A program made the translations under genes and the position numbers. The notes under the pieces were generated by a model that searched no databases, had not been told where the DNA came from, and was given only the letters and a program-made list of their open reading frames with translations. DNA of 64,000 bases from Elsinoe ampelina (taxonomy: Eukaryota): positions 372,001-436,000 of the forward strand of contig ML992504.1 of NCBI GenBank assembly GCA_010093995.1, in the 5' to 3' direction. Shown here piece after piece: positions 32,801 to 35,800 of this stretch (position 1 is its first letter; each line of letters opens with the position of its first letter).

Positions 32801-35800
32801 CGAGTGCAACGTCATGATCGAGACACAGATGTCCAAGGTGTATGAGAAGATTGATCTTACACTTCTCAATCGACTATTACGTCTGATCATGGACCACAAC
32901 TTGGCAGACTACATCACTTCGAAGAACAACGTGCAGCTCAGCTACAAGGATATGAACCACGTCAACAGCTATGGTATGGTTCGTGGTCTCCAGTTCTCGG
33001 CTTTCGTCTTCCAGTACTACGGTCTGGTACTCGACCTTCTATTGCTCGGTCTTCAGCGAGCTAGTGACATTGCTGGCCCACCAAACAGCCCGAACGACTT
33101 CTTACAGTTCAAGGATCGCGCCACCGAGACTCGCCACCCCATCCGTCTCTACACCCGATACATTGATCGTATCTGGGTCTTCTTCAGGTTCACTGCTGAC
33201 GAGTCCCGCGATCTGATCCAGCGTTTCTTGACTGAGCAGCCGGACCCGAACTTCGAGAATGTCATCGGCTACAAGAGCAAAAAGTGCTGGCCTCGAGATT
33301 CTCGAATGCGGCTTATGCGACACGATGTCAACCTGGGACGAGCAGTCTTCTGGGATCTTAAAAACCGTCTGCCTAGGTCCGTTACTACCATCGAATGGGA
33401 CGACACATTCGCCAGCGTCTACAGCCGCGACAACCCCAACCTCTTGTTCTCGATGTGCGGTTTTGAGGTACGAATTTTGCCCAAGATTCGCAATCAGAAC
33501 GATGAGTTCCCTACCAAAGACAGTGTCTGGTCACTCGTCGACAATGCTACGAAAGAGAGGACTGCTCATGCTTTCCTGCAGGTCACCGAAGAAGACATCG
33601 CCAAATTCAACAACCGCATTCGCCAGATTTTGATGTCATCCGGTAGTACAACATTCACGAAGATTGCCAACAAGTGGAACACCACCCTCATCGCCCTCTT
33701 CACCTACTACCGAGAAGCTGCCGTCAGTACCGTCTCGCTGCTCGATACGATCGTCAAGTGCGAAACCAAGATCCAAACTCGTGTCAAAATCGGTCTAAGT
33801 AAGTTTCCATTGCCCCTAGCCTCTTTAAATGCCTACTAACCCTCAAAAATATTCGAAAATGCCCAGTAGATTCCCACCCGCCGTCTTCTACACGCCGAAA
33901 GAATTGGGTGGTTTGGGTATGATTTCTGGTAGTCACATCCTGATACCTACCAGCGACAAGCGGTGGTCGAAACAGACCGATACAGGCGTCACGCACTACA
34001 GAGCCGGCATGTCTCATGATGAGGAGACCCTCATTCCCAATATCTTCCGATATATCATCCCGTGGGAGGCCGAGTTCATCGACTCCCAACGTGTCTGGAC
34101 CGAATACTCCCAGAAGCGCCTGGAGGCGACTCAGCAGAATCGACGACTAACTCTGGAAGATCTAGAAGACAGCTGGGACCGTGGCCTACCACGAATCAAC
34201 ACGCTTTTCCAGAAAGATCGCTCGACTCTCAGCTTCGACAAGGGTTTCCGCACCCGGACGGAGTTCAAGCTGTACCAGCTTATGAAGAGCAATCCCTTCT
34301 GGTGGACTAGTCAGAGGCACGACGGCAAGCTTTGGAACCTCAACGCCTACCGTACCGACGTTATCCAAGCGCTGGGAGGTGTCGAGACTATCCTCGAGCA
34401 CACCCTCTTCAAGGCAACAGCTTTCGGCTCTTGGGAAGGGCTTTTCTGGTAGGACCTCCGTGAATGACTACCAGAACTTGACGCTAATACATCCCCAGGG
34501 AGAAGGCAAGCGGGTTTGAGGAAAGCATGAAGTTCAAGAAATTGACAAATGCTCAACGGTCCGGTCTGAACCAGATCCCCAACAGACGTTTCACCTTGTG
34601 GTGGTAAGTATTTCCTACCAGCATGTTACCTCCCTATCACATCCCACCTCGCTCCACAGTTAGCCACTCCTACCAGTCCTAGCACTATCCTACCAGACAC
34701 CATGAGCCCCATGACAGAGTGTTTCCCGCCCGTGTCAAGGCTCCTACCAGAATACCACAGAAACTACCAGATTACTCGAAACCTGTGCAGGATCGAGCCC
34801 TGGCCGATGCCACGACTCCTACCACATTGCCACAAATACTACTAGACCATTGATAAACTGACATTTCTTTCAGGTCTCCTACCATCAATCGAGCAAATGT
34901 TTACGTCGGTTTCCAGGTCCAGCTTGACCTTACTGGCATTTTCTTGCACGGCAAGATCCCCACTCTCAAAATCTCACTCATCCAGATCTTTCGTGCTCAT
35001 TTGTGGCAAAAGATTCACGAGAGCGTCGTCATGGACTTATGCCAGGTCTTCGACCAGGAGCTCGAAGCGCTCGGCATCGAGACTGTCCAGAAGGAGACGA
35101 TCCATCCGAGAAAGAGTTACAAGATGAATTCGTCTTGCGCGGACATCCTGCTCTTCGCCAGCCACAAATGGGCAGTCACCACTCCAAGTCTGCTGAACGA
35201 TACCAAGGACAACATGGGTCAGACGACTACAAACAAGTTCTGGATCGACGTCCAGCTCCGCTATGGCGACTACGATTCCCACGACATTGAAAGATATGTC
35301 CGCGCGAAGTATCTCGACTACACTTCGGACAGCATGTCCATCTACCCCTCCGCGACAGGTCTCATGATCGGTATTGATCTCGCCTACAACCTCTACTCGG
35401 CATACGGACAGTACTTCCCAGGTCTCAAGCAGCTTGTACAACAGGCTATGGCGAAGATCATGAAGGCAAACCCGGCTCTATACGTACTTCGTGAGCGCAT
35501 CCGCAAGGGTCTACAGCTGTACGCATCTGAGAGTAACCAAGAGTTTTTGAATTCTCAGAACTATTCGGAGCTCTTCAGCAATCAGATCCAGCTGTTCATC
35601 GACGATACGAACGTTTACCGTGTCACGATTCATAAGACATTCGAAGGCAATCTCACCACCAAGCCCATCAACGGTGCTATCTTCATCTTCAACCCTAGGA
35701 CTGGACAGCTCTTCCTCAAAATCATTCACACAAGTGTCTGGGCCGGTCAGAAGCGTCTCGGCCAGCTTGCCAAGTGGAAGACAGCCGAAGAAGTCGCCGC

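What the first reader, a model, noticed from the sequence alone, without database searches (positions are those of the whole stretch)
34444..34885. Array of motifs antisense to the upstream 5' splice site in PRP8 intron 3
Seen: intron 2 has a weak donor, TTCTG|GTAGGA (34444-34454). The 270-nt intron 3 holds four perfect TCCTACCAG copies, the exact reverse complement of CTGGTAGGA; the 34742-34752 copy pairs over 11 nt. There are also CTACCAG and TACCAC variants, the latter complementary to intron 3's own GTG|GTA. Intron 2 contains CTACCAGAA (34468-34476), which can hairpin over its donor, and exon 4 begins with TCCTACCAT. Inference: multiple cis U1-like blockers or bridges for the 5' site, decoy YAGs, or a protein-binding array regulating PRP8 splicing.
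Basis: partly seen in the sequence, partly recalled or inferred. Interest (0 to 1): 0.85.

Follow-up and report, generated by a model that had tools for sequence, protein, structure and literature searches.

The report
Exon-derived repeat array in PRP8 intron
A long, lineage-specific intron in a fungal PRP8 gene appears to be built from decayed tandem copies of the coding sequence beside it, and the one nine-base piece that stayed intact mirrors the neighbouring intron's weak start site, so it may clamp that site, which is untested.

Summary
Intron 3 of PRP8 (34604-34873, 270 nt) carries four exact TCCTACCAG copies and three degenerate ones. An eighth copy forms the first codons of exon 4. All are antisense to the exon 2/intron 2 donor CTG|GTAGGA.

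Two spacers resemble the last ~35-45 nt of exon 3 (0 of 2000 and 1 of 2000 shuffles; 0 of 864 exon controls for one unit). Each is followed by a copy of the start of exon 4. The intron therefore reads as about four decayed tandem copies of the coding segment across today's exon 3/exon 4 junction.

Only 1 of 78 PRP8 relatives has an intron at this site, and none has the array.

The motif is 81-91% identical between copies, while the spacers are at chance level. That suggests constraint.

Pairing with the donor is predicted to be strong (P(unpaired) 0.005 against 0.22 when shuffled). It exceeds what ordinary donors show (9 nt against 3-5 nt in 28 of 28). It does not extend beyond the core, and the region is no more stable than shuffles.

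No RNA data, own genome or close relatives could be reached, so a regulatory role remains open.

The parts
34444..34454 (+). End of exon 2 and the donor of intron 2 (TTCTG|GTAGGA). This is the only sense-strand complement of the motif in the PRP8 gene.
   Evidence: I1-I8. The donor hexamer is seen in 0 of 28 relatives' introns.
34449..34498 (+). Intron 2, 50 nt, phase 2 in a TGG codon. If retained, it reads TGG TAG.
   Evidence: Spliced translation has 0 mismatches. The position (offset 17) is found in 0 of 78 relatives.
34468..34476 (+). CTACCAGAA inside intron 2. It forms a 9-bp hairpin with the intron's own donor.
   Evidence: I3. The minimum-energy fold contains the stem. Duplex energy is -14.1 kcal/mol.
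34499..34603 (+). Exon 3, 105 nt (35 codons). It holds the usual PRP8 intein insertion point, which is empty here. Its last ~45 nt are the source of the L copies in intron 3.
34604..34873 (+). Intron 3, 270 nt. It starts GTAAGT, has a branch-like CTGAC at 34858-34862, and ends TTTCAG. If retained, it reads TGG TGG TAA.
   Evidence: The position (offset 122) is shared by 1 of 78 relatives (L036, whose intron is 50 nt and has no array).
34613..34621 (+). Motif copy m1, TCCTACCAG, 9 nt after the donor. With its 3 following bases it matches the start of exon 4 in 10 of 12 positions.
   Evidence: (D4).
34668..34676 (+). Motif copy m2 (A type, preceded by C).
   Evidence: It takes 0.845 of the predicted pairing of the donor.
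34688..34740 (+). Unit L3: motif copy m3 (34688-34696) plus spacer S2. This is a degenerate copy of the last ~45 nt of exon 3.
   Evidence: Global alignment score is 8; 864 exon controls have a maximum of 2, so 0 of 864 reach it. The spacer alone is matched by 0 of 2000 shuffles. The window's own exon fits better than 61 orthologous junctions.
34742..34752 (+). Motif copy m4 with a 2-nt extension. It is the best antisense partner of the donor: 11 bp, then 3 more past a bulge.
   Evidence: I1. Duplex energy is -22.3 kcal/mol.
34762..34770 (+). Motif copy m5, AACTACCAG (B type).
34817..34825 (+). Motif copy m6, TCCTACCAC (A type).
   Evidence: D1, D2.
34837..34873 (+). Unit L5: degenerate copy m7 (TACTACTAG) plus spacer S4, which carries the branch site and the acceptor. 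It also resembles the end of exon 3.
   Evidence: S4 against the exon 3 tail is matched by 1 of 2000 shuffles. Unit U4 is matched by 6 of 864 exon controls.
34877..34885 (+). Motif copy m8, TCCTACCAT. These are the Ser-Pro-Thr-Ile codons at the start of exon 4 and the coding original of the A-type copies.
   Evidence: D1, D3. The residues are kept in relatives.

Best explanation
Origin. Intron 3 is a lineage-specific intron made of about four decayed tandem copies of a ~68-75-nt coding segment. That segment spans what is now the exon 3/exon 4 junction. The A-type motif copies (CTCCTACCA) are repeats of the first codons of exon 4. The spacers before them are repeats of the end of exon 3. A second, B-type copy sits 20 nt after each A copy.

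How it became an intron. The first copy supplied the GT donor. The last copy of the exon 3 tail became the branch site and acceptor.

What has happened since. The rest has decayed to chance similarity, but the 9-10-nt motif has stayed nearly intact. It is therefore probably under constraint.

Likely present role (inferred, not shown). The motif most likely acts in the pre-mRNA by base-pairing with the exon 2/intron 2 donor, which is its only perfect complement in the gene. Pairing would hold that weak donor closed until intron 3 is removed.

My odds: origin by duplication about 0.7; motif under constraint about 0.6; donor clamp as the working function about 0.3.
For: Register. Spacing is 55, 20, 54, 20, 55, 20, 40. 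A 44-nt stretch is 75% identical at a 75-nt offset (D2).

Similarity to the exon 3 tail. Unit 34688-34740 against the exon 3 tail plus GT scores 8; 864 PRP8 exon controls have mean -9.25, sd 3.65 and maximum 2, so 0 of 864 reach it. With motifs excluded, S2 against the tail is matched by 0 of 2000 shuffles, S4 against the tail by 1 of 2000, and S2 against S4 by 14 of 2000. A local test with motifs masked gives 2 of 414 controls.

Own lineage. The window's own junction fits the unit better than any of 61 orthologous junctions: own scores 8 and 16, orthologues at most 6 and 8. So the copy derives from this lineage's own codons.

Rarity. 1 of 78 relatives has an intron at this site and 0 of 80 loci has the array. 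At 270 nt the intron is far above the median of about 57 nt for 28 introns of relatives.

Constraint. Motif identity between copies is 49 of 54 (A type) and 44 of 54 (B type). Spacers give 18-33 of 90, against 0.27 expected from composition.

Donor relation. Contiguous complement is 9 nt, against 3-5 nt in 28 of 28 relatives' donors. P(unpaired) is 0.005 natively and 0.221 or 0.182 in shuffles, with 0 of 60 as low in each set. Duplex energies run from -10.9 to -22.3 kcal/mol.
Against: The classic model needs a duplicated AG|GT. Here the junction is TG|GT, so a fresh duplication would have had no AG acceptor at today's site.

Two of the four units (U1 and U3) are no more like the exon tail than controls (447 and 847 of 864). 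S1 resembles nothing.

Tandem Repeats Finder saw no 75-nt period.

L036 has a 50-nt intron at the same site. The position may therefore be older than the array, or it may have been gained twice.

For the clamp: the region folds no better than shuffles (z +0.54, -0.61 and -0.31). Complementarity beyond the core is not above flank-shuffled controls (677, 879, 1096 and 1067 of 2000). The last four copies each carry a mismatch. The donor is transcribed about 160 nt before the first copy, so U1 could bind it first.

There are no transcript data and no close relatives.
Confidence: 0.6

Rival explanations
1. Neutral relic. The array is only the footprint of the duplications. The motif survives by chance or because the copies are young, and the match to the intron 2 donor is a coincidence helped by coding constraints: TGG pairs with CCA, and GTA is generic to donors.
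For: The exon parts of both partners are fixed by conserved residues: Phe-Trp at the end of exon 2 and Ser-Pro-Thr at the start of exon 4. Only +4 to +6 of the donor need to match by chance. There is no excess folding stability and no complementarity beyond the core. Between the best-kept pair of units the flanks are still 64% identical (16 of 25, my count on D2), so the motif's excess there is modest.
Against: The motif is 81-91% identical between copies, while in-register spacers are at 20-37%. Four copies are perfect over 9 nt. None of 28 relatives' donors exceeds 5 nt of complement.
Confidence: 0.3
2. Binding-site array. The copies bind a protein or an snRNP rather than the donor. They could be intronic splicing enhancers or looping sites that let a 270-nt intron be spliced in a fungus whose introns are about 50-60 nt. 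Alternatively they could be a DNA-level transcription-factor site cluster.
For: The core is conserved and the phasing is regular. A second cluster of CTACCAG/CTGGTAG lies on both strands in intergenic, promoter-like DNA at about 39000-39600: 5 exact 7-mers in 400 bp, against 13 in the rest of the window outside the two clusters. Intronic sites that loop out enlarged introns are known in mammals (PMC1326234; I saw only the listing and the start of the abstract).
Against: No factor with this specificity is known to me. A 9-10-nt invariant core is long for an RNA-binding protein. The second cluster has different flanks (TACTACCAG) and irregular spacing. The PRP8 promoter region has no copy.
Confidence: 0.15
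3. Mobile intron. Intron 3 is an introner-like element or other transposon-derived intron, and the motif is part of that element.
For: The host lineage is probably Dothideomycetes, the class where introner-like elements were described. Those elements are longer than regular introns (start of the PMC3609843 abstract; PMC4457414 passages).
Against: There is no second copy in the 64-kb window or in the 80 PRP8 loci. The predicted structure is not unusually stable (z -0.61). The units match the gene's own flanking exons.
Confidence: 0.03

Closest known systems
Introns gained by tandem genomic duplication of an exon segment (Rogers model; reviewed in PMC3443670; Drosophila cases in PMC2891723; potato RdRp case in PMC4974935)
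   Same: The intron sits at a position empty in nearly all relatives. Its 5' part resembles the start of the downstream exon and its 3' part resembles the end of the upstream exon. Splicing restores the original reading frame.
   Different: There are about four extra copies rather than one. The junction is TG|GT, not the AG|GT proto-splice site the model relies on. One 9-10-nt piece has stayed intact while the rest decayed. I read passages of the first two papers. Of the third I saw only the listing and the start of the abstract.
Introner-like elements of Dothideomycetes (PMC3609843, PMC4457414)
   Same: A long, lineage-specific intron in a Dothideomycete-like genome. Parallel gains at positions occupied in other fungi are reported for these elements, which would fit L036.
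   Different: No other copy was seen in the window or in 80 loci, there is no excess structure, and the sequence derives from the flanking exons.
Intron or splice-site complementarity that controls splice-site pairing in yeast multi-intron genes (Howe and Ares 1997; recalled, not read; only phrase hits)
   Same: Short complementary stretches in a pre-mRNA with two introns and a small internal exon.
   Different: In the yeast case, as I recall it, the pairing is within one intron and favours exon inclusion. Here the partners lie in two different introns, one partner is the donor itself, and the other is present in up to eight copies.
Variable introns beside the PRP8 intein insertion point (Butler et al. 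2006, PMC1508164; Monier et al. 2013, PMC3749507)
   Same: Exon 3 holds the empty intein site, and lineage-specific introns flank it.
   Different: Those papers note an intron just downstream of the site, or at the intein's codon in an alga. Neither passage I read mentions an internal repeat array or complementarity to a donor.

Membership tests
Intron gained by tandem genomic duplication | The intron position is empty in related genes. | tested here: met
   Offset 122 is occupied in 1 of 78 evaluable PRP8 loci (L036). Two further loci lacked anchors.
Intron gained by tandem genomic duplication | The 5' part of the intron resembles the start of the downstream exon. | tested here: met
   m1 with its flank matches the exon 4 start in 10 of 12 positions (D4). 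CTCCTACCA is identical in the three internal A-type copies and the exon.
Intron gained by tandem genomic duplication | The 3' part of the intron resembles the end of the upstream exon. | tested here: met
   S4 (34846-34876) against the exon 3 tail is matched by 1 of 2000 shuffles. U4 is matched by 6 of 864 exon controls. The internal unit 34688-34740 is matched by 0 of 864 and 0 of 2000.
Intron gained by tandem genomic duplication | A duplicated AG|GT proto-splice site supplies both splice sites. | tested here: not met
   The exon junction reads TG|GT, inside a TGG codon that is fixed in all relatives. The present acceptor CAG must have arisen in the copy.
Intron gained by tandem genomic duplication | The intron length equals the duplicated length. 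| tested here: inconclusive
   270 nt against 4 x about 68 nt if the unit runs 34560-34603 plus 34874-34897. The unit's ends are not defined by the data.
Introner-like element | Many near-identical copies as introns of other genes in the same genome. | not testable with these tools
   No own genome is held. Within the window there is no second copy. None of the 80 loci has one.
Introner-like element | Unusually stable predicted secondary structure. | tested here: not met
   The intron folds at -42.6 kcal/mol against a shuffle mean of -40.2, z -0.61.
Cis antisense element that masks a splice site | Perfect complementarity to the splice site, and predicted to form. | tested here: met
   9-11 nt of exact pairing. 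P(unpaired) is 0.005 against 0.22 in shuffles, with 0 of 60 as low. Duplex energies run from -10.9 to -22.3 kcal/mol.
Cis antisense element that masks a splice site | The two partners covary in related species. | not testable with these tools
   The closest DNA found is at most 81% identical and lacks the array. Genomic DNA of other Elsinoe species could not be reached.
Cis antisense element that masks a splice site | An effect on splicing is seen in transcripts or mutants. | not testable with these tools
No reads were laid.
Intron-hosted small RNA (snoRNA, tRNA) | A match to a curated RNA family or a tRNA fold. | tested here: not met
   Rfam gave nothing in the intron at E up to 10 and nothing in the window at gathering scores. 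ARAGORN found 0 genes.

The most novel reading that the evidence does not exclude
An intron born from duplicated coding sequence has been co-opted as a multi-copy, U1-like antisense clamp. Its four perfect copies hold the weak donor of the neighbouring intron closed until the array-bearing intron is spliced out. This fixes the order of intron removal (3 before 2) and prevents in-frame skipping of the 105-nt exon 3. It could also make the output of the spliceosome's core protein depend on spliceosome capacity. That would be an autoregulatory RNA switch built from the gene's own exon.
Probability: 0.25. Interest if true: 0.8.

Novelty: new variant of a known kind. Interest (0 to 1): 0.5.

Why it matters
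Well-documented cases of how new spliceosomal introns arise are few. Here the intron seems to keep a readable record of its birth from the gene's own flanking codons, in several tandem copies, in one of the most conserved genes of eukaryotes.

If the retained motif really masks the neighbouring donor, it would show how a newborn intron acquires a regulatory task. It would also show this in the gene for the core protein of the machine that removes it.

Both points can be tested directly with sister Elsinoe genomes and ordinary RNA sequencing.

Tried and rejected
Resources that were not available. No own genome is held, so the genome-wide k-mer test could not be run. Earlier findings of this scan held nothing relevant.

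Known RNA in the intron. Rfam and tRNA searches found none.

Tandem Repeats Finder reported only a 10-nt period at 34744-34776 and no 75-nt period.

Intron 2 as a copy of exon 3: not supported (76 of 303 controls reach the score).

Intron 2 homologous to the first 56 nt of intron 3: not supported (2282 of 3000 shuffles reach the score).

Intron 2 homologous to the offset-24 intron of L047: 17 of 1000 shuffles, but this was one of 22 comparisons, so it is not significant.

The donor region as an inverted duplicate of a longer stretch around a motif copy: not supported (flank-shuffled controls reach the score in 677, 879, 1096 and 1067 of 2000).

Excess thermodynamic stability: none.

A second copy of intron 3 in the window: none.

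The other exact motif copies, at 14418, 48720 and 50103, read as codons in open frames by my reading. The copy at 16317 lies on the - strand inside a + strand Myb ORF.

Intron 1 as a duplicate of its downstream exon: marginal (19 of 550 controls).
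Full report
OBSERVATION

TCCTACCAG stands on the + strand at 34613, 34668, 34688 and 34742. Its reverse complement stands once, at 34446-34454, across the exon 2/intron 2 border (CTG|GTAGGA). The window holds 9 copies against 0.39 expected, and 0 of 100 shuffles reached 9. Within the intron alone, any 9-mer reached four copies in only 3 of 5000 dinucleotide shuffles.

There are four more copies with one or two changes: AACTACCAG at 34762, TCCTACCAC at 34817, TACTACTAG at 34837, and TCCTACCAT at 34877. 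The last is coding sequence, 3 nt into exon 4.

GENE MODEL AND CONTEXT

The gene is PRP8, with open frames 29763-33839, 33829-34452 and 34857-37274. Removing 34449-34498 and 34604-34873 gives the conserved peptide from WEGLFW to NVYVGFQ with 0 mismatches. Both introns split a TGG codon after TG. Both would give an immediate stop if retained (TGG TAG and TGG TGG TAA, read). Exon 3 is 105 nt, so skipping it would stay in frame.

The window has fungal genes, with Pfam hits. An orphan neighbour gene is 96% identical to a protein that its source names as from Elsinoe ampelina, a Dothideomycete. The exon 4 product is 98% identical to a cluster whose sources name Sphaceloma murrayae and Elsinoe australis.

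RELATIVES

A metagenome scan gave 80 PRP8 loci. None is close at the DNA level; identity is at most 81%.

Of 78 loci with both anchors, 49 have no intron in the 165-nt stretch, 7 have an in-frame intein-sized insert, and 22 have introns at 13 different offsets. The solver split three long introns into pieces, and I merged these by eye.

- The window's intron 2 offset (17) is found in 0 of 78.
- Its intron 3 offset (122) is found in 1 of 78. That locus is L036, whose intron is 50 nt and has no array.
- No locus has more than one copy of the motif: 8 loci have one copy and 72 have none.
- The 28 distinct introns of relatives have a median length of about 57 nt. Only 2 are 267 nt or longer, and none starts GTAGGA.

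ANATOMY OF THE ARRAY

Start-to-start spacing of the eight copies is 55, 20, 54, 20, 55, 20, 40. So A-type copies (preceded by C, giving CTCCTACCA) alternate with B-type copies 20 nt later. A 44-nt stretch (34728-34771) is 75% identical to the stretch 75 nt downstream (D2).

In register, the A copies are 49 of 54 identical in pairwise comparison and the B copies 44 of 54. The five spacer blocks give 18-33 of 90 and 22 of 66. That is 0.20-0.37, against 0.27 expected from base composition.

None of the three internal A copies keeps the GT that precedes the motif at the true exon 4 start (read).

ORIGIN

The spacers are not all random. I aligned the last 44 nt of exon 3 plus the first GT of exon 4 globally to each unit.

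| Unit | Coordinates | Score | Controls reaching it |
|---|---|---|---|
| U1 | 34613-34666 | -9 | 447 of 864 |
| U2 | 34688-34740 | 8 | 0 of 864 |
| U3 | 34762-34815 | -14 | 847 of 864 |
| U4 (last) | 34837-34875 | 0 | 6 of 864 |

For the U2 row, the 864 PRP8 exon segments used as controls had mean -9.25, sd 3.65 and maximum 2; the other rows' controls had means of -7.9 to -9.4 and maxima of 2 to 4.

With the motifs left out:
- Spacer S2 against the exon 3 tail is matched by 0 of 2000 shuffles.
- S4 against the tail is matched by 1 of 2000.
- S2 against S4 is matched by 14 of 2000.
- S2 against S3 is matched by 86 of 2000.
- The short spacers T2 against T3 are matched by 13 of 2000.
- S1 resembles nothing.

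A local test with motifs masked gave 2 of 414 controls. The window's own junction fits the unit better than any of 61 orthologous uninterrupted junctions: own scores are 8 and 16, and orthologues reach at most 6 and 8. The likeness therefore includes this lineage's own synonymous choices.

In unit 34688-34750 the copy of the exon 3 tail abuts the copy of the exon 4 start with no intron between them. The template was therefore an uninterrupted junction.

The simplest reading is serial tandem duplication of a ~68-75-nt coding segment. It leaves the order R1-L2-R2-L3-R3-L4-R4-L5 between the true L1 (exon 3) and R5 (exon 4). Here L is the exon 3 tail and R is the exon 4 head. The donor lies at L1|R1, and the branch site and acceptor are made from L5.

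WEAK POINTS OF THE ORIGIN READING

- The published model relies on a duplicated AG|GT (passages of PMC3443670 and PMC2891723). Here the junction is TG|GT inside an invariant Trp codon, so the acceptor AG must have arisen in the copy. How the gene stayed functional at that moment is not explained.
- Two units carry no detectable exon signal.
- Tandem Repeats Finder reports no 75-nt period.
- L036 shows that the site can hold an ordinary intron. Parallel gains at one site have been argued for Dothideomycetes (PMC4457414 passages), but I cannot tell which applies here.

THE DONOR RELATION

Ordinary donors share only GGTA/TACC with the motif. The longest contiguous complement is 3-5 nt in 28 of 28 donors of relatives. 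It is 3 and 5 nt for the window's introns 1 and 3, and 9 nt for intron 2.

Duplex energies between the donor region and the copies run from -10.9 (m7) to -22.3 kcal/mol (m4). The copy inside intron 2 gives -14.1.

In a partition-function fold of 34380-34930, the donor's mean P(unpaired) is 0.005. Of its pairing, 0.845 goes to m2, 0.110 to m3 and 0.040 to m4. With the interior of intron 3 shuffled, P(unpaired) is 0.221. With both intron interiors shuffled it is 0.182. No shuffle was as low as native (0 of 60 in each set).

Against a selected structure:
- The 481-nt region, intron 3 and the intron 2 region fold no better than shuffles (z +0.54, -0.61 and -0.31).
- Complementarity beyond the 9-mer is no more than flank-shuffled controls give (677, 879, 1096 and 1067 of 2000).

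The exon halves of both partners are fixed by conserved residues. Chance therefore needs only positions +4 to +6 of the donor, which I put at roughly one in a few hundred. That is low but not negligible for a feature found by eye.

OTHER READINGS

- Introner-like element. There is no second copy in the window or in the loci, no excess structure, and the units match the gene's own exons. A whole-genome search was impossible.
- Small-RNA host. Rfam and ARAGORN found nothing.
- Binding-site array. The 7-mer CTACCAG occurs 25 times in the window, 7 of them in the PRP8 intron region. Five lie on both strands within 39181-39571, in DNA without a convincing reading frame, upstream of the minus-strand orphan gene. 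I cannot explain this second cluster. It keeps a DNA-level or protein-binding reading alive.
- Intron 2. It shows no significant likeness to exon 3, to the start of intron 3, or to relatives' introns.

WHAT IS SHOWN AND WHAT IS INFERRED

Shown:
- the array, its register and its rarity;
- the exon likeness of two units;
- the contrast between motif and spacer conservation;
- the complementarity to the donor and its predicted strength.

Inferred:
- tandem duplication as the process;
- constraint on the motif;
- any effect on splicing.

No paper I saw describes this array. My searches were on intron gain, stwintrons, the PRP8 intein, Elsinoe introns and intron complementarity. This is not a claim that nothing is in print.

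VERDICT

This is a real and unusual feature. It is best read as a duplication-born intron that keeps one exon-derived 9-mer.

Noticed in passing
window 33799-33850: Intron 1 of PRP8 looks non-canonical. The stretch from KCETKIQTR to RFPPAVFY is 136 nt here and 84 nt in 44 of 46 relatives. The only 52-nt removal that keeps the invariant [12 protein letters not shown] starts GTAAGT and ends AAT. No AG is available there. Canonical GT-AG pairs either shift the frame or delete 4-5 invariant residues. This is either a GT..AT intron or a base error in the assembly.
   Followed up: partly
window 39000-39600: A second cluster of the core CTACCAG/CTGGTAG lies on both strands (39181-, 39264+, 39315-, 39505+, 39565-), together with CTACCAC and ACTACTAG variants. 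It sits in DNA without a convincing reading frame, upstream of the minus-strand orphan gene 37635-38711. It includes a 10-nt inverted pair 43 nt apart. It may be a transcription-factor site cluster. It is unexplained.
   Followed up: partly
L001-L050, the stretch encoding WEGLFW to NVYVGFQ: Among 22 intron-bearing PRP8 loci this 165-nt stretch holds 13 different intron offsets. They fall in two groups: 24-56, around the intein insertion point at offset 27, and 122-140. Seven loci (plus L001 by eye) carry inteins and show no intron in the stretch. Butler et al. 2006 already tabulate an intron just downstream of the intein site.
   Followed up: partly
window 34464-34480 and 48791-48807: A 17-nt stretch of intron 2, including its CTACCAG copy, matches an open frame 14 kb away at 16 of 17 positions (blastn-short E 0.031). 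It is probably chance.
   Followed up: no
window 12171-12896 and 15267-16649: Two open frames with Myb-like DNA-binding domains lie 3 kb apart on the + strand. They may be exons of one gene. One of them holds the only other sense-strand CTGGTAGGA in the window (16317).
   Followed up: no
window 34499-34516: The PRP8 intein insertion point (EKA|SGFE) is empty here. It lies 9 nt downstream of the intron 2 acceptor, so at the DNA level intron 2 interrupts the sequence around the homing site.
   Followed up: no
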